Sequence record: PP627281.1
Length of the DNA: 57,280 nt
Origin: Escherichia phage KS_W4
Strand: one strand, 5' to 3'
In this document: positions 8,268 to 37,609 of the stretch, piece by piece
How positions within the stretch are numbered: position 1 is the stretch's first letter
Layout of the letters: the number at the start of each line of letters is the position of its first letter
Program-made: the position numbers and the translations under genes
Notes under the pieces: model-generated
What the model saw: only the letters and a program-made list of their open reading frames with translations
Databases searched by the model: none
What the model was told of the DNA's origin: nothing

Positions 8268-8716
8268 TGCTGGGATACGATTTTATTAATGACGCATTTA
8301 ATAAGATGCTACGCGAAGCGGTTGGACCGGATATAGGTATAGCGTGGAAGAACAAGAAGTTTACACCTAAAGCGAATCAGATGTGGTTAAAAGCAATCAA
8401 TGCACCTGCATCCACATACGCGGCAACGCTAGGTGACAACGGTCTGAATGAAATTCCAGGATTCTATCAAGTCACAGTGTACAGTCCGTTAAACACTGGA
8501 ACGTCTAAACAGAATCAAATCTTGGATTCCATTCGGAAAAAGTTTAAACTGGGCTTGCGTATCCCGTGCCCGGATGACCACACGATACGAATTGTCAGCT
8601 TAGACTTTTCGCAGGGTGGACAAACTTCGCTGAATGATTTTACCAGAGGCGGGGTTGAAGACAACTGGGACGTTAACTTTATTACAATCTATTGGTCGGC
8701 TCGTGAGCCGAGGTAA
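8267..8716 (+). CDS. tail completion protein (putative)
   Basis: 149-aa ORF, start overlaps upstream stop; precedes major tail gene. Confidence 0.4.
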   Translation: MLGYDFINDAFNKMLREAVGPDIGIAWKNKKFTPKANQMWLKAINAPASTYAATLGDNGLNEIPGFYQVTVYSPLNTGTSKQNQILDSIRKKFKLGLRIPCPDDHTIRIVSLDFSQGGQTSLNDFTRGGVEDNWDVNFITIYWSAREPR

Positions 8717-8730
8717 GAGAGGATCTAAAT

Positions 8731-9654
8731 ATGGCTACAGGTTCACGTTATTCGTGTTATTACGTCAAAGAAGATGTGAGCAACACAACTCCAGCAAGCG
8801 CGAAGTTTACCCCGTTTCGTGTAACGAGTTCCGGTCTGGATATTAACATTGCGACGCTGGAGTCTGAAGAACTGCGTGATGACGCAGAAACCGCAGACTT
8901 CCGTCTTGGCGCTCGAAGCGTTGAAGGTACGGTAACGGGCGAAATGTCCTTCGGTACGTTTGACGACCTCATTGCGGCAGCGCTGCGCGGTGAATGGCAG
9001 GAGAACGTCCTTAAAGGTGGTATTGTTCGCCAGTCATTTACTTTTGTAGACTATAACGCAGATCTGCCATCAGGTAAATACACAATCTATCGCGGTTGTG
9101 AAGTTAACAGCATGACTTTCGCATTGTCAGCTGAAAACATGACCACAGTAGAGTTTGGTATTGTTGGTCGTTCCATGGAAATTGCTGAATCACTTCCTGC
9201 CGGTGCTTCCATTAAACCTCGTACAACTTCTTCACCGATGGACGGCTTCTCCGGTCGCTTGCTGGAAGGCGGTCAGGAAATTAGCGTTATTACGGAAATC
9301 GGTCTTACCGTTGAAAACGATATCTCCCCGCGCTTCGTTGTTGGCTCGAAGTTCTCCATTGAACCGTCTGCTGGTCGCCGTGCTGTAACTGGTACAGCTA
9401 ACGTTTACTTCCTGGATAACAAACTGCGTAAGAAGTATCTGGATGAAGTGGAAACTTCAATCAAGTTTGATCTGATTGACCCAAGCAATCCGCAACAAAA
9501 ATACACTGTGGAAATCCCTCGCGTGAAATTCACTGAGGCTCCGCGTCCTATTGACGGTGAAGGCGATATCATGCTTAATATGGGCTACCGCGGATTGCTG
9601 GACCCAACAACCGCAAGTTCCATCAAAATTACCCGCGTTTTAGCGGGAGCATAA
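8731..9654 (+). CDS. major tail (tube) protein
   Basis: 307-aa ORF with GAGAGGA RBS, immediately upstream of the chaperone/tape-measure genes. Confidence 0.55.
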   Translation: MATGSRYSCYYVKEDVSNTTPASAKFTPFRVTSSGLDINIATLESEELRDDAETADFRLGARSVEGTVTGEMSFGTFDDLIAAALRGEWQENVLKGGIVRQSFTFVDYNADLPSGKYTIYRGCEVNSMTFALSAENMTTVEFGIVGRSMEIAESLPAGASIKPRTTSSPMDGFSGRLLEGGQEISVITEIGLTVENDISPRFVVGSKFSIEPSAGRRAVTGTANVYFLDNKLRKKYLDEVETSIKFDLIDPSNPQQKYTVEIPRVKFTEAPRPIDGEGDIMLNMGYRGLLDPTTASSIKITRVLAGA

Positions 9655-9663
9655 GGATAAGAA

Positions 9664-10071
9664 ATGACCGACACCAAAAAAGCCAAAGTTGCAGTAGCTA
9701 AAAGCTTCCGTGATTTTAAAACTGTGAGCCGGGCAAATGATCCGGCTAACACTAAGCCTATGAATGTGGTTATTCCTGGTGTAGGCGACACTGGCGAAAA
9801 ACTCTACATTCGTAGCCGCTACTGCACAGAGTACCGTGACGCTGAACTGAAAGCGCAACGTCAACTGTTGGCACTTATGCAGGGTAAAGACGGTGAAGTA
9901 ACAGATGCTATGAAGGAAGACATCCTTACCCGTTCACTGTGTAACCTTGTAGCAGGTTGGACTTTTGACGAGCCACCGACTGTTGACAACGTGTTTGAGT
10001 TCTTAACGGAGAACCCAACTGTCCGAGAAGACCTTAACGTGTTTGCCGCTAAAGATAGTAATTTTTTCTAA
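9664..10071 (+). CDS. tail assembly chaperone (G-like)
   Basis: 135-aa ORF between major tail and tape measure genes; ends ...KDSNFF with slippery TTTTTTC at 10062-10068. Confidence 0.6.
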   Translation: MTDTKKAKVAVAKSFRDFKTVSRANDPANTKPMNVVIPGVGDTGEKLYIRSRYCTEYRDAELKAQRQLLALMQGKDGEVTDAMKEDILTRSLCNLVAGWTFDEPPTVDNVFEFLTENPTVREDLNVFAAKDSNFF

Positions 10072-10469
10072 AAGCGCGCAGACAGTTAATTGATAAGAAG
10101 ATCCTCCAATGGGAACTAAATAGTAAAGTCCCCGGCGGGGGATCTTCTTTATTATCGCAACTGCAAAAGGTTGAGGAACAGTCTGGTAAGACGCCACCTA
10201 AGCTTAAAGAATATCGGGAAAAGGAAATACCGCTTTGCTTCGAATATCTATCTACTTTATTTGATGATATCTACACTGGAGGAGATTTTAGTTATACAGA
10301 ATTGCACAGCTATCAAGTGACAATGGGCTTACATCTTCAACCGTACGAATGCGAAATACTGCGGCAGCTATGGCTTGAAAAGCGCGTGTCAGAAGCTGAA
10401 CAAAATGCTAAACTCATGGAAAGTCAAATGCAAAATCAAAATAAAGGTAGAAGAAAAAGGAGAAGATAA
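9664..10469 (+). CDS. tail assembly chaperone -1 frameshift fusion product (GT-like), predicted
   Basis: The -1 frame is open from 10062 to a stop at 10467-10469 that overlaps the tape-measure ATG (TAATG); U UUU UUC heptamer at the chaperone 3' end; 10-bp inverted repeat AAGAAGATCC/GGATCTTCTT at 10095-10149 downstream. Confidence 0.5.
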
Positions 10470-13400
10470 TGGCCGAAACCGCTTCGCTAGTAATCAGAGT
10501 TGACGCGAGAGGGATTAGTACCGCGGACTCTATGTTGCGGAACTTAGCGCGTACAGGTGACACAGCGGAGCGGTCTGCTCAACGTGTTACCTCCAGCTAT
10601 AAAACATTGTCTAACACATCTAACGAACTTGCAACTGTCACAAGTCGTTTAGATGCTGCAATTGTAGGAATGATTAGCGTCGACACCATTAACCGTGTTA
10701 TTTCGCTATCGGACTCATGGACTATCCTCACCAACAAACTTGAACTGGCTCGTACGGGTAATGAAACCGTTGCGGATGCGCAGCAACGCGTGTTTGATAT
10801 TGCCCAGCGGTCACGTACAAGCTTGGAAGCAACTGCAACTCTGTACTCCCGTCTCCAGCGTGCGATGAAGAATACTGGTATGACTGGTATGGAGCTTGGA
10901 CGTATCACGGAAACAATTAACAAAGCAATGATTGTTTCCGGTGCAACATCCCATGAAGCAAGTGCTGCCCTTATTCAGTTTTCGCAAGCAATGGCATCCG
11001 GTGTTCTGCGTGGGGATGAATTCCGCTCTGTTGCAGAACAAGCGCCGCGCTTAACTCAAATCATGTCCGATTCGTTAGGCGTTACTATTGGACAATTGCG
11101 TGAGCTGGCGTACAGCGGCAAGTTAACAGCCGATGTGGTTATCAAATCGTTGTCTGGTGCTGCGGATACAATTGATAAAGAATTTAGCCGCACTATGCCA
11201 ACGTTCAACCAGCAATGGACAGTTGCAACAAACAACCTGACTAAGTTTATGGGCGAATCCCAAAAGACTCAAGGTGCTGTTGCTGCATTGGGACAGACGT
11301 TTGTTGCATTATCCGAAAACTTAGGAACGGTTGTAACGGTTGGTTCAGCTTTAGCCACAGTGATTACCGCCCGTATCATCACGGCAATGTTGGCCAAGAC
11401 TAAAGCGTCTATAGCTGCTGCAAAAGCATCACGGATGGAAGCTGCACAAACGGCGGCAACTACTGCGGTGATGCAAAGCTCTATTGGCGTTACCGCACAG
11501 AAAGCGGCTGCGGATCGTGCTGCTTCGCTTGCATCGTTGCAGGTGGCACGCGGTGCATTAGCAGTTGCTAAAGGTACGGCAGCGGAAGCCGGCGCACGTC
11601 TTGCTCTTATTAACGCTACCCGTGCGCATTCTGCGGCAATTATGGCGGACGTACAAGCGCGGCAAGCGCTCAATGCTGCGCTCAATGCAACCGTACCAGC
11701 CGCAAGCCGAGCCGCTACAGCAATGAGCGTGCTGCGCGGTGCTATGGGGTTAATTGGTGGTCCTGTTGGTGTAGCAATGCTGGCAGCGGGTGCAATTTAC
11801 TCCTATAAAGCGTCGCTGGAAGCTGGTCGTGCGGAAAACAATCAGTTTGCAGATAGTGTTGATAGTGTACGCGAAAAACTAATGCAGATGACGGAAGCTC
11901 AGCTGGCAGCTAACGCTGTCAAAGCTCGCGCAATACTTCCTGAACTTGAAGAGCAAATGAAGCGGGAACAGACCGCTCTAAAATCTGCAACAGAAACGCA
12001 AAAGTTCTACGAAGCACAATTAAAACGTCGAGCTGCATCCGGTCGAGATACTGCTAGTGCGGAAAAGAACTTACAGATTGCTACGGATAACGTCAAGCTA
12101 GCTGCTGAACGCGCGGAAGACGCACAACGTCGATATAACAATGTGCTTGAAATGACAAGCCCCGCTATAGAGAAAATAATCCCTCTAGCACGTCAGCTTG
12201 CTGCGGATATGAAGGCTGTCCTTAGCATTAAATCCGGTCCGTTAATTGACGAAAAAGTATTGGATCGCTTTAAAGGTCAACTCGGGGACGTTAACCGTGA
12301 GATTGATGTTAACACGGTTAAGGGCGCTGGTAATGCTCGCCAAGCTGCAATCCTTAGTGGACTGTACCAGACGCTGGGCAAGGATGCGGATACATACGGA
12401 AGTCTTATTCGCAAAGTGGCTATGGGTCAGGACGTTAGCTCAGAGGCAACAAGCGAATCCGCTAAAGAGCTTGTTAAATACGCTCAAGATTTGGCCCAAG
12501 CTCTTGGCAAAAACTACGATCTTGAAGAAGCAGAGAGGAACCGGACTAAAGCTACAAAAGACGCTATTAAGGCAGATCAACAAAACGCTAAGGTTATTGA
12601 CGATTTACGAAACAAGCTTAACGAAGTAACCACAGGGGTTAAGGAAAACGCCAAAGCGAAAGCGCAAGCGGTGGCACTTAATAAGCTCAATGCGTCTGCA
12701 ACGGCTGCGGAAAAAGCAGAAGTTGTTAGTCTTGCTGCTGCAATTTACGATGCAGAAGAAGCTCAAAAGAAACTGGACGAGCGTAAGAAGAACCGTAAGT
12801 TTGCTCAGGGTCTGTTAGATGAAGGTATGACAGACTATGAAAAAATCGCGTACGAGCAAAATACAAAGATTGCAGAGCTTAATGCAAAACAACGAGCCGA
12901 TGATCTAGCTTACTATCAGCTTTACGAAGATGCTAAAACCCAAGTCCTGAAGAAAGCGAGCATGGAAAGGGAAAATCTGGATAAAGTTCTTATGAACCGA
13001 ATGATATCCTTTTCTCAGGAATCCTTAGGCATTATAATGGATGGACTGTCACAGGCTGTAAGCCAGCAGAACTTCTTTTATAAAGCTATGTTTGCAGCAC
13101 AGAAAGCAATGCAAATCCCGTCAATCCTTGCTAACACGGAAACGGCAGCATCCGCGGCGCTTGCATGGGGTACACAGCAAGGCGGTGCTACAATGGGCGC
13201 AACAATGGCAGCTATAGTGAAAACTATGGGCTATGCGTCAGCAGCTACTGTGGGTGGCTTAGCAATTGCTGGTATGGCTCACGACGGTATTGATAACGTT
13301 CCGCGTGAAGGTACATGGTTGCTGGATAAGGGTGAACGTGTACTTAATGCTCCGTCTAATGACAAGTTAAATCGCTTTCTGGATAGCCAAGCTTCACAAC

Positions 13401-13585
13401 AAGGTGGCGTGAATATGTCCGGTGGTGTTAGCATTGTTCAGTATATCACGGTGCAAGGAAATGGCGATGCAGCACTCACACAAGCCATGCAAAAAGCAGC
13501 CCGTGATGGCGCTGAGCAGGGATATAATAAAGTTCTTAATGACTTTGCATCCCGAGGAACAATTCGTAGAACTGCAATGGGGTAA
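10469..13585 (+). CDS. tail tape measure protein
   Basis: 1038-aa Ala-rich, largely helical ORF directly after the chaperone frameshift region. Confidence 0.8.
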   Translation: MAETASLVIRVDARGISTADSMLRNLARTGDTAERSAQRVTSSYKTLSNTSNELATVTSRLDAAIVGMISVDTINRVISLSDSWTILTNKLELARTGNETVADAQQRVFDIAQRSRTSLEATATLYSRLQRAMKNTGMTGMELGRITETINKAMIVSGATSHEASAALIQFSQAMASGVLRGDEFRSVAEQAPRLTQIMSDSLGVTIGQLRELAYSGKLTADVVIKSLSGAADTIDKEFSRTMPTFNQQWTVATNNLTKFMGESQKTQGAVAALGQTFVALSENLGTVVTVGSALATVITARIITAMLAKTKASIAAAKASRMEAAQTAATTAVMQSSIGVTAQKAAADRAASLASLQVARGALAVAKGTAAEAGARLALINATRAHSAAIMADVQARQALNAALNATVPAASRAATAMSVLRGAMGLIGGPVGVAMLAAGAIYSYKASLEAGRAENNQFADSVDSVREKLMQMTEAQLAANAVKARAILPELEEQMKREQTALKSATETQKFYEAQLKRRAASGRDTASAEKNLQIATDNVKLAAERAEDAQRRYNNVLEMTSPAIEKIIPLARQLAADMKAVLSIKSGPLIDEKVLDRFKGQLGDVNREIDVNTVKGAGNARQAAILSGLYQTLGKDADTYGSLIRKVAMGQDVSSEATSESAKELVKYAQDLAQALGKNYDLEEAERNRTKATKDAIKADQQNAKVIDDLRNKLNEVTTGVKENAKAKAQAVALNKLNASATAAEKAEVVSLAAAIYDAEEAQKKLDERKKNRKFAQGLLDEGMTDYEKIAYEQNTKIAELNAKQRADDLAYYQLYEDAKTQVLKKASMERENLDKVLMNRMISFSQESLGIIMDGLSQAVSQQNFFYKAMFAAQKAMQIPSILANTETAASAALAWGTQQGGATMGATMAAIVKTMGYASAATVGGLAIAGMAHDGIDNVPREGTWLLDKGERVLNAPSNDKLNRFLDSQASQQGGVNMSGGVSIVQYITVQGNGDAALTQAMQKAARDGAEQGYNKVLNDFASRGTIRRTAMG

Positions 13586-13588
13586 TAT

Positions 13589-14173
13589 ATGCTCACTTGG
13601 CCCGAAGAAATTAGACCTTCCGAGATGGAATGGTATCTTGTTTCAAACTCTGTTGAATTTACAAGCCCCTTTAATGGGGCTTCACAAACTGTGTCCTATC
13701 CTGGGTCACGATGGGAAGCAACATTAACGTTCAGCAATTTAAATGACTGGCAATCCAGAAAGCTTGAATCAACGTTAGCTAAGCTTGACGGTAAAGCTGG
13801 TCGTATTATGCTTCAGGATTTTGGTCGCTGGGGTCGTGCACCGATTGGATCACCTGTGGTTAATGGCGCAAACAATACAGGGACAACTTTATCAACCAAA
13901 GGTTGGACTCCTAACAGAAAGGTTCTATGGGAAGGGGATTACATCGCAGTAAATAATGAATTAAAATTAATAACCGAAGATGCTTGGAGCGATTCTTCTG
14001 GTAACGTGATTTTAAATATTGCCCCAATGCTGAGGACTATTCCACCAAACGGGGCTAAAATCGAAACTCAAAAACCACAAGGGGCTTTCCGTTTAGCAGA
14101 AAACACTAACGGGGTTAAGCGTCAACCAGCTTTTAATAATTCATTCACTTTAAAATTCTCGGAGGCGTTCTAA
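13589..14173 (+). CDS. minor/distal tail protein
   Basis: 194-aa ORF immediately after tape measure; lambda-like order. Confidence 0.5.
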   Translation: MLTWPEEIRPSEMEWYLVSNSVEFTSPFNGASQTVSYPGSRWEATLTFSNLNDWQSRKLESTLAKLDGKAGRIMLQDFGRWGRAPIGSPVVNGANNTGTTLSTKGWTPNRKVLWEGDYIAVNNELKLITEDAWSDSSGNVILNIAPMLRTIPPNGAKIETQKPQGAFRLAENTNGVKRQPAFNNSFTLKFSEAF

Positions 14174-14757
14174 TGCTATTCAGTCCTTTCAGCGATACGC
14201 TTCTTAATGCAATGGAGCAGCCAAACGTTAGTTTGGTCCTTGCTGCGGAAATCGACTTTCCTTCTGGTGTAACGCGTGTACATACTGGGACAGGTGTTGT
14301 TGTTATTAACGGTCAAACGTTCCTGGGCGTTGGTACGCTTGGAGACGTAGGATCTGTAACAGAAGAAAACAGCACAAGCTCAAGCACAATGTCCATGGCA
14401 TTAAGCGGTCTGGATATGAGTCTTGTTGGAGAGACGTTAAACGAAGAAGTTATCGGGCGCAATGTTGTTTGCTATATTGCAGTGATGAACGATCAAGGTA
14501 ACGTCATTGCTGCTAATATTTTGTTTGAAGGTTTCATTACAGACACCGCATTACAAGCAGGTCAACAGAATGCATTGAGTTATGTTATTTCCAACGTGTT
14601 TGAGCGTTGGTCACAAGGTTTACCGGATCGCTATACGGATGAAAGTCAACAGCGTTTATATCCGGGCGACCGTTTCTTTAGATATATTGCACAAATGGCT
14701 GAACGTTCAATCTTCTGGGGGAGTAAAAAAGATGCGCCAGGGTTCTCCTATGAGTAA
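14173..14757 (+). CDS. minor tail protein
   Basis: 194-aa ORF with TAATG coupling to upstream gene. Confidence 0.5.
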   Translation: MLFSPFSDTLLNAMEQPNVSLVLAAEIDFPSGVTRVHTGTGVVVINGQTFLGVGTLGDVGSVTEENSTSSSTMSMALSGLDMSLVGETLNEEVIGRNVVCYIAVMNDQGNVIAANILFEGFITDTALQAGQQNALSYVISNVFERWSQGLPDRYTDESQQRLYPGDRFFRYIAQMAERSIFWGSKKDAPGFSYE

Positions 14758-15166
14758 GTTGCCAGGCTGGCAGACACGTTTATTAACCACAGTAAAGGAG
14801 TTGTCATCGACTCCTTTTTCTTGGGGTGAAAATGATTGCTGTACCTTTGCTGCTAAATGTGTTGATGCTCAATACGGTACAAATATCTACGAACAAGTCG
14901 CTGGAAAATATAGTACAGAGCTTGGAAGTAAAAAGTTCACTATTGAAAGAGTTGGAACCGCTTACCTTCCATTGTTATTGGATACTTACCTCAGCGAACG
15001 CGTTGACAAGAACTATGCGCAAAGAGGCGATGTGGTTACATTTGAGGGAGCATTGGGCTTAACTGCTGGCATATTATGGACTGGATATGTATGGGCTATG
15101 GGTCCGAACGGTGTGGAAACATTCCCGCTTAATAAGATCAAAATTACGGATATTTGGAGGGTCTAA
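14732..15166 (+). CDS. tail assembly protein (gpK-like, cysteine peptidase-type motif)
   Basis: GGGGGAG RBS before ATG at 14732; contains GENDCCTFAAKC motif; sits before the tip protein gene. Confidence 0.45.
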   Translation: MRQGSPMSKLPGWQTRLLTTVKELSSTPFSWGENDCCTFAAKCVDAQYGTNIYEQVAGKYSTELGSKKFTIERVGTAYLPLLLDTYLSERVDKNYAQRGDVVTFEGALGLTAGILWTGYVWAMGPNGVETFPLNKIKITDIWRV

Positions 15167-32301: not shown

Positions 32302-33114
32302 TTACAAGCCGTTCAGGGCTTCCGGTACTGGTACAGGTACGCGACCAGTCACACCATTAAATTTCTTCCAGCGTGCATACTGGGTTTTAACGGTATCTTC
32401 GTTCAGCCCATGGCGACCGGCCAGATTCAGAACATAAGAGATCGGAGCAGGTTGGCCCAGCGTAGCGCTAATCTGGTCCATCAGAGCCCAAGCACGACCG
32501 CAGGAAGTTTCCGGTTGCGGACGGCGAACACCGTTCTGTTCCGGCATACGATTAGCTTCTTTTTCTTTCTCGCGGAGTTCTTTAGCGCGTGCTTTTTCCG
32601 CTTCTTTTTCTGCCTGTTTTGCAGCACGGATCTTGTCTTTGAAGCCTTTAATAGTAGCTTCCAGACCATCCACCAGACCCTGGGCAGAAGTTACAGCACC
32701 GGACAGGTCTTCACCTTTAGACTTCTTAACGACAGCTTTCAGCTCTTTCAGAGCTTCTTTAATGGTCTTCAGGTTTGCAGATCCCTGAGTTTCTGCTTCC
32801 GTGATCTGTTCAACAGTGCTTTCGTCGGTGACGGTAGCCAAAGAGTTTTTCAGGATTTCAGCAGCGTTAGCAATCGCATTAAATTTGTTTTCCGCTTCAG
32901 TGCGGATTTCAGCTTGTTTCTTTTCAGCGGCAGCTTTTTTCTCTGCTTCTTTTTTCTCTTTTGCTACGCGTGCAGCTTCAGCAGCAGCGGCTTTCTTAGC
33001 TTCTGCATCATTCACAGTAGCTTCTTTCTTTGCAGGTTTAGCAGATTTTGCAGCGGCAGCAGCGGCAGCAGCGGCAGCGGCTTTTTTATCTTCAATGTTG
33101 CTCATTCTCTTCAC
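32302..33114 (-). CDS. Ala/Lys/Glu-rich protein with conserved C-terminal domain
   Basis: 270 aa; poly-Ala tract encoded by GCN repeats at 33050-33082; C-terminal about 45 aa shared with the ORF at 48588-49202. Confidence 0.5.
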   Translation of the reverse strand: MKRMSNIEDKKAAAAAAAAAAAKSAKPAKKEATVNDAEAKKAAAAEAARVAKEKKEAEKKAAAEKKQAEIRTEAENKFNAIANAAEILKNSLATVTDESTVEQITEAETQGSANLKTIKEALKELKAVVKKSKGEDLSGAVTSAQGLVDGLEATIKGFKDKIRAAKQAEKEAEKARAKELREKEKEANRMPEQNGVRRPQPETSCGRAWALMDQISATLGQPAPISYVLNLAGRHGLNEDTVKTQYARWKKFNGVTGRVPVPVPEALNGL

Positions 33115-36713: not shown

Positions 36714-36739
36714 AGGGACACTACAGAGGGAGGATTAAC

Positions 36740-37609
36740 TTACTGCTGCCACGGCGGGACGGCTGCTTGTGCCGGATGCGGTTCAGCTTGCTGCTGTGGC
36801 TGCGCTTGCTGCTGCGGTGCCGCTGCCTGACCCGGCTGCGCTAACTGCTGCGCCCACGGTTGCTGAGCTGCTTCCGGTGCTACTGGCTGTTGTACCGGAG
36901 CTTGCTGAACTGGCTGCTGTGGCGCTGCGTTTTGAGCAGGGTTATCCCACGGCTGCGGTGCGGCATTCTGCCACGGTTGAGCTGCTGCGCCCTGCTGCGG
37001 TGCTGGTTGCTGAACAGTCTGCTGTTGCTGTACCGGAGCTTGCTGCTGTACAGGTGCTTGCTGTTGCTGAGCAAACGGGTTAGCTGCTGGCTGCTGCGGT
37101 GCTGCGCCCGGGAATGCTGGCTGCTGTGCTGGCGCACCTGCACCGAACGGGTTAGCTACTGCTGGAGCGCCCATTGATGGAGCCTCTGCTGCTTTTTCTG
37201 CATACTTAACCGGATCGTTAATGTTAGCGTAACCGTTAGGCTCGTTGCTGTCTTCATAACCTTCCTGAGAACGAACTTTCAGACGCAGGTTCAGCGGAAT
37301 GTTATGCAGTTGAGCAGGAGTATCCCAGCGAATTACACCAACTGCATGAGACAGAGCGCCCAGTTGCTCGTAAGCGATACGCACAGTATCTTCGTTGTCA
37401 TTGATGACGTTATAACGAGCAAAGATTTTACGCCCTTTAGCAAAACCGTCAATGATGCTAAACGTTACCTGGATCGCCATACCGCCATTTTTGGTCGGTT
37501 TAAATTCAGATGCTTCAATTACTGCTTTATACCAACCTTTCGGCAATGCGCCGTAAGAAGGTGCTTGATAGCTGCTCGCGTCAAAGTGGAAATTAGTTGG
37601 CATAGTCAT
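36740..37609 (-). CDS. ssDNA-binding/annealing-associated protein with Q/P/A-rich tail (putative)
   Basis: 289 aa; globular N-terminal about 150 aa followed by a low-complexity Gln/Pro/Ala-rich C-terminus; beside a Sak4-like ATPase. Confidence 0.35.
   Translation of the reverse strand: MTMPTNFHFDASSYQAPSYGALPKGWYKAVIEASEFKPTKNGGMAIQVTFSIIDGFAKGRKIFARYNVINDNEDTVRIAYEQLGALSHAVGVIRWDTPAQLHNIPLNLRLKVRSQEGYEDSNEPNGYANINDPVKYAEKAAEAPSMGAPAVANPFGAGAPAQQPAFPGAAPQQPAANPFAQQQQAPVQQQAPVQQQQTVQQPAPQQGAAAQPWQNAAPQPWDNPAQNAAPQQPVQQAPVQQPVAPEAAQQPWAQQLAQPGQAAAPQQQAQPQQQAEPHPAQAAVPPWQQ

What the first reader, a model, noticed from the sequence alone, without database searches (positions are those of the whole stretch)
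10062..10469. Candidate programmed -1 ribosomal frameshift in the tail assembly chaperone
A perfect U UUU UUC slippery heptamer (10062-10068) lies at the 3' end of the chaperone gene. The -1 frame is open from there to a stop at 10467-10469 that overlaps the tape-measure ATG, matching the lambda G/GT arrangement. A 10-bp inverted repeat (AAGAAGATCC / GGATCTTCTT, 10095-10149) enclosing a GC-rich element lies downstream, although farther from the slip site than typical stimulatory structures.
Basis: partly seen in the sequence, partly recalled or inferred. Interest (0 to 1): 0.45.

Follow-up and report, generated by a model that had tools for sequence, protein, structure and literature searches.

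The report
Tail chaperone G/GT ribosomal frameshift site
This is the standard programmed -1 ribosomal frameshift that lets a long-tailed phage make a short and a long tail-assembly chaperone from one gene; the comparative evidence for it is strong, but the same site is already annotated in near-identical phages, so it is ordinary.

Summary
T_TTT_TTC (10062-10068) sits in the correct X_XXY_YYZ register at the end of the 135-codon chaperone ORF (9664-10071). The -1 frame is open from exactly 10062 to TAA 10467-10469, which overlaps the tape-measure ATG. The window is a Seuratvirus (98.5% identical to phage CSP1).

The frameshift reading is strongly supported:
- The heptamer and the 0/-1 arrangement are kept in all 27 genomes examined, down to 24% protein identity.
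- Substitutions switch codon phase at the heptamer.
- The 250 nt after the G stop has no start codon yet evolves as coding sequence.
- The -1 part hits Pfam Phage_TAC_18, and PHROG 569 spans both halves.

GenBank records of phages Seurat and SA80RD already annotate this ribosomal slippage, so it is already known. No fusion protein has been shown experimentally.

It has near-frozen synonymous sites. Sister lineages carry hairpins of different sequence at the same place. It begins 22 nt after the slip site, too far for a canonical stimulator, and its role is open.

The parts
8731..9654 (+). Major tail tube protein gene (context: upstream neighbour of the chaperone gene)
   Evidence: 307-aa ORF; Pfam Phage_tube_2, E = 2e-43.
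9664..10071 (+). G-type tail assembly (tape measure) chaperone ORF, 135 aa, zero frame
   Evidence: ORF. PHROG 313 'tail assembly chaperone' 3.2e-11 and PHROG 569 2.8e-26. Pfam Phage_TAC_4 is only 0.048 for this protein, but 8 of 13 homologues match at <=0.01. 33 of 39 variable sites fall at third codon positions.
10056..10061 (+). TAG TAA in the -1 frame, closing that frame immediately upstream of the heptamer
   Evidence: The -1 frame opens exactly at 10062; read directly from the sequence.
10062..10068 (+). Slippery heptamer T_TTT_TTC (U_UUU_UUC) in X_XXY_YYZ register
   Evidence: Conserved as T_TTT_TTC, or T_TTT_TTA in the EC151 lineage, in all 27 genomes examined. U_UU.U_UU.C is among the efficient E. 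coli motifs (PMC4066793).
10069..10071 (+). Zero-frame stop TAA directly 3' of the heptamer (possible 'shifty stop')
   Evidence: The same arrangement occurs in Seuratvirus, Nonagvirus and Kpn2-P2-like phages but not in more distant relatives, where the stop lies 3-93 nt later.
10062..10469 (+). -1 frame 'T' extension (FFLKARRQ...RRKRRR, then stop). With G it gives a 268-aa GT fusion spanning 9664-10469.
   Evidence: Translation. Pfam Phage_TAC_18 1e-9, above the gathering score; 13 of 13 homologues match. PHROG 569 profile positions 129-256. In 10072-10322, 17 of 24 variable sites are at -1-frame third positions; 5 of 20 variable codons change the amino acid, against 18/19 and 15/19 in the other two frames.
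10091..10154 (+).
   Evidence: -28.2 kcal/mol, z = -4.8. z = -3.5 against synonymous-codon permutations, 0/300. Rank 32 of 11,442 windows. 94.6% of cells paired, and variable stem positions are mostly pair-preserving. Synonymous sites are almost frozen across 10062-10180.
10083..10087 (+). 5' strand of a possible outer helix (CAGUU) pairing with 10159-10163 (AACUG)
   Evidence: MFE fold. 3 of its 5 pairs show changes on both sides in STP-SP5 or yong3. This rests on few sequences and is weak.
10159..10163 (+). 3' strand of the possible outer helix
10458..10462 (+). Shine-Dalgarno AGGAG for the tape measure gene, inside the end of T
   Evidence: Sequence; annotated as a ribosome-binding site at the equivalent position in Seurat.
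10469..13585 (+). Tape measure protein gene; its ATG overlaps the T stop (TAATG)
   Evidence: 1038-aa ORF; Pfam TMP_3 1e-59.

Best explanation
A small fraction of ribosomes translating the chaperone gene slip back one nucleotide at U_UUU_UUC. This happens when the two tRNA-Phe occupy UUU (P site, 10063-65) and UUC (A site, 10066-68); they re-pair on UUU UUU (10062-67). The next codon read is CUA (10068-70), and translation continues in the -1 frame to 10469. The product is a 268-aa GT fusion (...DSNFF-LKARRQ...). All other ribosomes stop at UAA 10069-71 and release the 135-aa G protein.

By analogy with lambda, G and the G part of GT coat the tape measure protein, and the T part recruits the tail tube protein. 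The low frameshift rate fixes a high G:GT ratio.

What is shown here: the sequence anatomy, conservation of the heptamer and frame arrangement, coding selection in the -1 frame without a start codon, and family membership of the T part. What is inferred: that the shift is ribosomal, its efficiency, and the protein functions.

The 64-nt hairpin 22 nt downstream is a real, conserved RNA feature. I consider it a secondary modulator of unknown kind, not a canonical stimulator.
For: - Register and frames.
- tblastn with the fusion protein finds 89 phage records; every one of the 60 records listed has the match in two pieces, except Aeromonas phage AP1, where only the T part matches as one piece.
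- The heptamer is in the correct register, and the -1 frame is open from at or before it to the tape measure start, in 16 annotated genomes (Seuratvirus, Nonagvirus, Vidquintavirus, Craquatrovirus, Mesyanzhinovviridae, Acinetobacter and Providencia phages) and 11 metagenomic contigs. Meanwhile the distance from the heptamer to the G stop varies from 0 to 93 nt.
- Protein alignments show FF as the last conserved residues of G and the first of T. Conservation continues straight from the junction (R6, L9, I10, W17), upstream of any start codon used by gene callers.
- Among 15 collinear Seuratvirus genomes the substitution phase switches at the heptamer: 33/39 at frame-0 third positions before it, 24/34 at -1-frame third positions after it. 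The start-less stretch 10072-10322 shows 15/20 synonymous variable codons in the -1 frame, against 1/19 and 4/19 in the other frames.
- Families: Pfam Phage_TAC_18 on the T part, PHROG 569 spanning both halves, PHROG 313 on G.
- The same slippage is annotated in Seurat and SA80RD.
- U_UU.U_UU.C is frameshift-prone in E. coli and avoided in its genes (PMC4066793). TTTTTTC is depleted in this window.
- Lambda G:GT biology: PMC5009743.
Against: - There is no protein, ribosome-profiling or reporter evidence for this phage or its genus. The Seurat paper only names a 'tape measure chaperone'.
- No stimulatory structure starts at the usual 5-8 nt, and no Shine-Dalgarno-like sequence lies upstream (sequence). 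Efficiency therefore cannot be predicted.
- A one-U insertion by RNA polymerase on the T6 run would give the identical protein, so even mass spectrometry would not separate the two mechanisms.
- Most GenBank records of relatives annotate two separate ORFs instead.
Confidence: 0.88

Rival explanations
1. Transcriptional slippage. RNA polymerase occasionally adds one U on the T6 run (T7 in Nonagvirus-like phages). Normal translation of that minority mRNA would give the same ...NFFLKA... fusion.
For: The run is homopolymeric, T6 in the window and T7 in the 9g, Kpn2-P2 and EC151 lineages. The predicted protein is identical to the frameshift product (from the sequence). U7 and A7 runs are avoided in E. 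coli genes, partly for this reason (PMC4066793).
Against: From my own knowledge of the cases reviewed in PMC5009743, documented productive slippage sites in bacteria use runs of about 8-9 or more; six is short. The conserved feature is a heptamer in slippery register ending in C or A, and the run was never lengthened in 27 genomes. The downstream region carries an RNA-level constraint, which has no obvious role in polymerase slippage.
Confidence: 0.05
2. There is no recoding. T is an independent small protein started at an internal codon (TTG 10302 or ATG 10323 here), as most records annotate, and the heptamer is incidental.
For: Gene callers annotate a separate ORF equal to window 10323-10469 in CSP1C, WildeMaa, Greed and VogelGryff, and longer separate ORFs in 9g, Vid5, EC151 and others.
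Against: Those starts are not conserved in position. In the window no ATG/GTG/TTG exists in this frame between 10062 and 10302, yet 10072-10322 evolves under purifying selection in that frame. It also aligns as protein across all lineages right up to the FF junction. The Pfam Phage_TAC_18 match starts at residue 37 of the extension, upstream of the annotated start. The heptamer is invariant in register across 24-100% identity.
Confidence: 0.03
3. This concerns the hairpin only. The 10091-10154 stem-loop is not tied to frameshifting. It acts as a partial intrinsic terminator, an RNase III or stability element, or a barrier to Rho in the largely untranslated T region, tuning how much tape-measure mRNA follows the abundant tube and G message.
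For: The terminator scan flags GTCCCCGGCGGGGGAT followed by CTTCTTTATT at 10128-10153. The stem is about 24 bp long with internal loops. After the G stop, most ribosomes leave about 400 nt untranslated (inference). The distance to the slip site is non-canonical (PMC4066793).
Against: The U-rich tail is itself the 3' arm of the more stable long hairpin. The sister-lineage hairpins (9g, Kpn2-P2) have no U tract, so a terminator is not the conserved feature. More distant relatives have their hairpin 5-10 nt after the heptamer, which links a structure to the slip site across the family. No RNase III or Rho test is possible with these tools.
Confidence: 0.3

Closest known systems
Phage lambda G/GT tail assembly chaperone -1 frameshift (Levin 1993; Xu, Hendrix and Duda 2004, 2013, 2014, as summarised in PMC5009743)
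   Same: Two overlapping ORFs lie between the major tail gene and the tape measure gene. There is an X_XXY_YYZ heptamer near the end of the first ORF. The -1 extension ends at the tape measure start. Neither ORF resembles lambda's in sequence, which is typical for this class.
   Different: The heptamer is U_UUU_UUC, not G_GGA_AAG. The 0-frame stop follows the heptamer directly, and the -1 frame opens exactly at the heptamer, giving a 10-nt overlap. A large hairpin lies 22 nt downstream. Nothing has been shown at the protein level.
Annotated 'tape measure chaperone' slippage in Escherichia phage Seurat (KM236243, CPT_Seurat13/14) and vB_EcoS_SA80RD (OL960575)
   Same: An orthologous site: identical heptamer and flanks, 95.8% DNA identity and 99.6% protein identity. 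The joined CDS has slippage at the position equal to window 10065.
   Different: None of substance. Those are annotations, not experiments. The nearest relatives of the window (CSP1, CSP1C) do not carry the joined CDS.
Canonical bacterial -1 frameshift cassettes (dnaX, IS3/IS911) with a stimulator 5-8 nt downstream and/or an upstream Shine-Dalgarno sequence (PMC4066793)
   Same: A slippery heptamer of an efficient class, and a stable downstream RNA structure with reduced synonymous variation.
   Different: The structure begins 22 nt after the heptamer (31 nt for its invariant core). No upstream Shine-Dalgarno-like sequence is present.
Collision-stimulated -1 frameshifting (Smith et al. 2019, PMC6815119)
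   Same: In that work a stalled leading ribosome raised -1 shifting about 2-fold in a trailing ribosome sitting on a heptamer 9 codons behind. Here a leading ribosome whose A site is 9 codons past the heptamer would have its mRNA entrance at about 10100-10104, inside the invariant GC-rich core of the hairpin. This is my geometric inference.
   Different: This is purely a geometric coincidence so far. In this phage only ribosomes that have already shifted reach the hairpin, so any effect would be a weak positive feedback.

Membership tests
Lambda-type G/GT tail assembly chaperone frameshift | Two overlapping ORFs located between the major tail protein gene and the tape measure gene | tested here: met
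   Order is Phage_tube_2 (8731-9654), G (9664-10071), T (10062-10469), TMP_3 (10469-13585).
Lambda-type G/GT tail assembly chaperone frameshift | A slippery sequence in the overlap, in the register that allows both tRNAs to re-pair in the -1 frame | tested here: met
   T_TTT_TTC at 10062-10068, with G-frame codons AAT TTT TTC. The motif class is efficient in E. coli.
Lambda-type G/GT tail assembly chaperone frameshift | The downstream ORF is in the -1 frame, has no start of its own near the overlap, and is under coding selection | tested here: met
   No ATG/GTG/TTG between 10062 and 10302. 17/24 variable sites are at -1-frame third positions and 15/20 variable codons are synonymous.
Lambda-type G/GT tail assembly chaperone frameshift | The arrangement is conserved in relatives despite sequence divergence | tested here: met
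   27 genomes at 24-100% identity keep the heptamer, register and frame relation. 89 phage records match the fusion protein; every one of the 60 records listed has the match in two pieces, except Aeromonas phage AP1, where only the T part matches as one piece.
Lambda-type G/GT tail assembly chaperone frameshift | The proteins belong to tail assembly chaperone families | tested here: met
   T part: Pfam Phage_TAC_18 at 38.8 bits against a cut-off of 27, and 13/13 homologues match. G part: PHROG 313 at 3.2e-11. Pfam Phage_TAC_4 is below its cut-off for this protein, but 8/13 homologues match. A fold test failed: the single-sequence AlphaFold model had pLDDT 43.
Lambda-type G/GT tail assembly chaperone frameshift | A GT fusion protein is made at a low fixed ratio to G and is needed for tail assembly | not testable with these tools
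   This needs a Western blot or mass spectrometry and mutagenesis. No such data were found for Seuratvirus.
Canonical -1 frameshift cassette with a proximal 3' stimulator | A stable RNA structure starting about 5-8 nt after the heptamer | tested here: not met
   The hairpin base is at 10091, 22 nt after 10068, and the invariant core starts at 10100. Long-range helices starting at +8 to +11 appear only in some folding contexts, with pair probability 0.4-0.7.
Canonical -1 frameshift cassette with a 5' Shine-Dalgarno stimulator (dnaX type) | A Shine-Dalgarno-like sequence 6-17 nt upstream of the heptamer | tested here: not met
   10045-10061 reads GCCGCTAAAGATAGTAA, with no GGAGG-like element.
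Transcriptional slippage site | A homopolymer run long enough for efficient RNA polymerase slippage (about 8-9 or more in known bacterial cases; my own knowledge) | tested here: not met
   The run is T6 in the window and T6-T7 in relatives.
Intrinsic (Rho-independent) terminator | A GC-rich stem-loop directly followed by a U tract, conserved as such | tested here: inconclusive
   The pattern scan matches at 10128-10153. However, the region's match count is at shuffle level (8 against 6.4). The U-rich tail pairs within the larger hairpin. The 9g and Kpn2-P2 hairpins lack a U tract.
Rfam RNA families (known frameshift elements and others) | A match at or above the family gathering score | tested here: not met
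   Only sub-threshold hits to microRNA-precursor-like models, which reflect a long hairpin.

The most novel reading that the evidence does not exclude
The conserved hairpin is a distal frameshift modulator acting at a non-canonical distance. Its 5' arm sits about 29-39 nt after the heptamer in Seuratvirus, Nonagvirus and Kpn2-P2-like phages (EC151-like and Vid5 hairpins start slightly further downstream). One possible mechanism: it stalls a leading ribosome about 9 codons ahead, so that the next ribosome collides while sitting on U_UUU_UUC. Another: it forms the core of a larger domain whose closing helix reaches back to about +8 to +11. Either way it would set the G:GT ratio by a mechanism not described for phage tail chaperone genes.
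Probability: 0.2. Interest if true: 0.5.

Novelty: already known. Interest (0 to 1): 0.2.

Why it matters
For annotation: CSP1, CSP1C and most of the other Seuratvirus and Nonagvirus records opened here list G plus a short or mis-started second ORF. They should carry a joined 268-aa GT product, as Seurat and SA80RD do.

For biology: the frameshift itself adds nothing new beyond another well-conserved example that uses U_UUU_UUC with an adjacent stop. The only open point of wider interest is why a stable hairpin with frozen synonymous sites is kept 22-36 nt downstream in this group, when more distant relatives keep one at the canonical 5-10 nt.

Tried and rejected
- The search for homologous proteins with the 268-aa fusion returned no hit at E <= 0.001. 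No deep alignment could be built, and the structure tool would not accept locus-derived sequences.
- The single-sequence AlphaFold model of G was unusable (pLDDT 43), so no fold search was run.
- Profile searches of the G and T alignments against PDB sequences gave nothing meaningful; the 7ue2 designed-repeat hit has no passing stretch.
- NCBIfam gave nothing. Rfam gave nothing above threshold.
- The search for related loci with the 13-lineage T alignment failed for lack of a conserved stretch. A 4-lineage alignment worked.
- RNAalifold on an in-register alignment across lineages predicted no common structure. The hairpins share a location and a left-arm position, but their right arms are offset by a few nucleotides, so the cross-lineage evidence is 'recurrent hairpin', not column-wise covariation.
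- Within the EC151 and Kpn2-P2 lineages the covariation counts were not above shuffles, with too few sequences.
- A long-range closing helix starting 8-11 nt after the heptamer (CAGAC 10079-83 with GUCUG 10181-85) appeared in some folds but changed with the length folded. I do not rely on it.
- The synonymous-permutation control showed that ordinary coding segments also fold somewhat better than permuted ones (mean z -0.3 to -1.1). Only the strong cases (window, 9g, Vid5, JeffCo; z about -3 to -3.5) are clear outliers.
- The terminator reading of the small GC hairpin was considered and set aside as the conserved feature.

Full report
WHAT THE WINDOW IS. The region 8700-10700 is 98.5% identical to Cronobacter phage CSP1 and Escherichia phage CSP1C, and 92-98% identical to about 30 other Seuratvirus genomes (Queuovirinae), including Seurat and CAjan. 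Around the finding, the + strand carries four genes in order:
- a tail tube gene, 8731-9654 (Pfam Phage_tube_2, 2e-43);
- a 135-codon ORF, 9664-10071;
- a stretch with no called gene;
- a 1038-codon tape measure gene starting at 10469 (Pfam TMP_3, 1e-59).

CHECK OF THE OBSERVATION. The last codons of the 135-codon ORF are AAT TTT TTC TAA. TTTTTTC (10062-10068) is therefore in the X_XXY_YYZ register, and the stop follows directly. The -1 frame is open from 10062 to TAA 10467-10469, whose last A is the first base of the tape measure ATG. The only place where a ribosome can change from G into T is these 10 nucleotides. The +1 frame is closed. The inverted repeat AAGAAGATCC / GGATCTTCTT is at the stated coordinates. 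TTTTTTC is depleted in the window: 10 copies on both strands against 19.6 +/- 4.5 in shuffles. Only the copy at 10062 joins two open frames of at least 130 codons.

IS THE -1 FRAME TRANSLATED? Three independent lines say yes.

First, protein families. The -1 product hits Pfam PF23812 Phage_TAC_18 above its gathering score (38.8 bits against 27), and the match begins at residue 37 of the extension. PHROG 569, a 256-position profile, is matched by G on positions 11-126 and by the extension on positions 129-256, so that family already contains fused proteins. All 13 diverse T homologues hit Phage_TAC_18. Eight of 13 G homologues hit Phage_TAC_4.

Second, selection. In 15 collinear Seuratvirus genomes, 33 of 39 variable sites in G fall at third positions of frame 0. 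After the heptamer, 24 of 34 fall at third positions of the -1 frame. In 10072-10322 there is no ATG, GTG or TTG in that frame. Even so, only 5 of 20 variable codons there change the amino acid in the -1 frame, against 18 of 19 in frame 0 and 15 of 19 in the +1 frame.

Third, deep conservation. tblastn with the 268-aa fusion finds 89 phage records. In the 60 records listed, the match falls in two pieces, with one exception: Aeromonas phage AP1, where only the T part matches as a single piece. I examined 16 annotated genomes:
- Seuratvirus (including STP-SP5 and yong3) and Nonagvirus 9g;
- EC151, Kpn2-P2, Vid5 and PSTCR4;
- PMBT28 and Kokobel2;
- the Pseudomonas phages PaMx11 and ZQG1, and Acinetobacter phage JeffCo.
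I also examined 11 metagenomic viral contigs. Identity to the window ranged from 24% to 100%. In every case the G frame contains T_TTT_TTC (T_TTT_TTA in the EC151 lineage) in slippery register, and the -1 frame is open from at or before it to the tape measure start. The G stop lies anywhere from 0 to 93 nt after the heptamer. Protein alignments show FF as the last conserved residues of G. After FF the G tails are absent or unalignable. FF is also the first pair of residues in a T alignment that is conserved straight from the junction. The start codons that gene callers chose for a separate second ORF differ from genome to genome and lie downstream of conserved coding sequence.

MECHANISM. The best explanation is tandem -1 slippage of the two tRNA-Phe from UUU UUC to UUU UUU, with CUA read next. 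This yields G (135 aa) and GT (268 aa). U_UU.U_UU.C belongs to the efficient class H_HH.U_UU.Y in E. coli. It gives more than 0.1% shifting without a stimulator, is avoided in E. coli genes, and is used by IS elements (PMC4066793). In Seuratvirus, Nonagvirus and Kpn2-P2-like phages the 0-frame stop directly follows the heptamer. This may add a pause (the 'shifty stop' effect, from my own knowledge), but the stop is not universal in the family, so the heptamer is the ancestral signal. No Shine-Dalgarno-like sequence precedes the site. Function is inferred from lambda: G and GT bind the tape measure protein, T recruits the tube protein, and the ratio is about 30:1 (PMC5009743). Efficiency here is unknown.

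THE DOWNSTREAM REPEAT. The 10-bp inverted repeat is the middle of a longer structure. Arms of 23 nt are 78% complementary and fold as a 64-nt hairpin, 10091-10154: 17 + 4 + 3 pairs, -28.2 kcal/mol, z = -4.8. It ranks 32nd of 11,442 70-nt windows in the whole window, although it has the lowest G+C of the top loci. Against permutations that keep the protein and the codon set, z = -3.5, and 0 of 300 permutations fold as well.

Synonymous sites are almost frozen from the heptamer to about 10180. Among codons with the same amino acid, 9/10, 10/11 and 9/9 are identical to yong3 in this stretch, against 1-4 of about 8 further on. The pattern is similar for STP-SP5 and contig L007. Within the genus there are 5 variable sites in 129 nt, against 29 in 266 nt further downstream (Fisher p = 0.02).

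On 17 Seuratvirus sequences, 94.6% of pair cells are standard pairs, against 36-59% when partners are slid. Four pairs changed on both sides, and 0 of 500 shuffles reached this. The structure was derived from one of these sequences, so this control is lenient.

Sister lineages have a strong hairpin of different sequence, encoding different amino acids, at the same place. The left arm begins 29-36 nt after the heptamer in 9g, Kpn2-P2, EC151 and Vid5. Within lineages the changes are mostly pair-preserving (U-A to U-G). In contig L040, a shifted and extended right arm comes with amino-acid changes. An in-register alignment across lineages gives no common column-wise structure, so this is a recurrent hairpin, not strict covariation. 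The Pseudomonas, Acinetobacter and Providencia relatives instead show a hairpin 5-10 nt after the heptamer. All 13 lineages fold better than their synonymous permutations just after the slip site (mean z about -2.1). Control segments give mean z of -0.3 to -1.1.

WHAT THE HAIRPIN DOES is not settled.
- Canonical stimulator: unlikely. It starts 22 nt after the heptamer, and its invariant core starts 31 nt after, against the usual 5-8 nt (PMC4066793).
- Terminator: a terminator-like reading exists. However, the U-rich tail is the 3' arm of the larger stem, and the sister hairpins lack U tracts.
- Ribosome collision: one geometric point is worth recording. A stalled leading ribosome stimulates -1 shifting of a trailing ribosome best at 9 codons of A-site spacing (PMC6815119). 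A leading ribosome 9 codons past this heptamer would have its mRNA entrance at roughly 10100-10104, inside the invariant GAUCCUCC / GGGGGAUC core. This is inference only. In this phage only already-shifted ribosomes reach the hairpin, so the effect could be no more than a weak feedback.
- Other roles: an RNA-stability, RNase III or anti-Rho role in the mostly untranslated T region is at least as likely.

COMPARISON AND NOVELTY. This is a member of the lambda G/GT class by every feature that can be tested in sequence. The untested features are the fusion protein itself and its requirement for tail assembly. The identical site is already annotated as ribosomal slippage in Escherichia phage Seurat (KM236243, joined CDS, slippage at the position equal to window 10065) and in SA80RD. 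The papers on Seurat, Vid5 and EC151 do not discuss it. I therefore rate it as already known. There is a small addition of possible interest, the conserved distal hairpin. There is also a practical point: most related GenBank records lack the joined CDS.

RIVALS. Transcriptional slippage on T6/T7 would give the same protein and cannot be excluded from sequence, but the run is short and was never lengthened (about 5%). Independent initiation of T is contradicted by the start-less but selected coding stretch and by the conserved junction (about 3%). A sequencing error or pseudogene is excluded by the arrangement being the same in every genome examined.

DEAD ENDS. The large protein search returned nothing. 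The single-sequence structure model was too poor for a fold search. PDB, NCBIfam and Rfam gave nothing useful.

Noticed in passing
window 11501-11570: This is the most stable 70-nt RNA fold on the + strand of the whole window (-37.4 kcal/mol, G+C 41/70). It lies inside the tape measure gene.
   Followed up: no
window 36736-37155: A cluster of four of the 15 most stable 70-nt windows (starts 36736, 36811, 36901, 37086; G+C 43-50 of 70). No tRNA genes were found anywhere in the window, so this is something else.
   Followed up: partly
window 32935-32941 and 32950-32956: Two more TTTTTTC copies lie 15 nt apart on the + strand, inside a 304-codon open frame. They are in the TTT TTT C register (not the slippery one), with a 121-codon open frame in the register that would make them slippery.
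   Followed up: partly
window 14582-15166 versus 14173-14757: the ORF listing gives a 194-codon ORF starting at ATG 14582 that overlaps the preceding 194-codon minor tail ORF by 176 nt. The true start of the downstream, tail-tip-like gene is probably later.
   Followed up: no
L017 (Acinetobacter phage JeffCo) 1097-1199, and L013, L015, L016, L019: In distant relatives the G frame runs 39-93 nt past the heptamer and encodes Ser/Pro/Gln-rich, unalignable tails. G proteins of this family therefore differ in having or lacking a disordered C-terminal tail, while the slip site stays fixed.
   Followed up: partly
window 10103-10107 and 10137-10141: The invariant core of the hairpin pairs CCUCC (identical to the anti-Shine-Dalgarno core of 16S rRNA) with GGGGG (Shine-Dalgarno-like). 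Unfolding by a ribosome would expose a Shine-Dalgarno-like G run inside the T coding region. Its significance is unknown.
   Followed up: no
database behaviour: The large protein database returned no homologue of the GT fusion, although the phage collection holds 89 matching records. The absence of hits there is not evidence of rarity.
   Followed up: no
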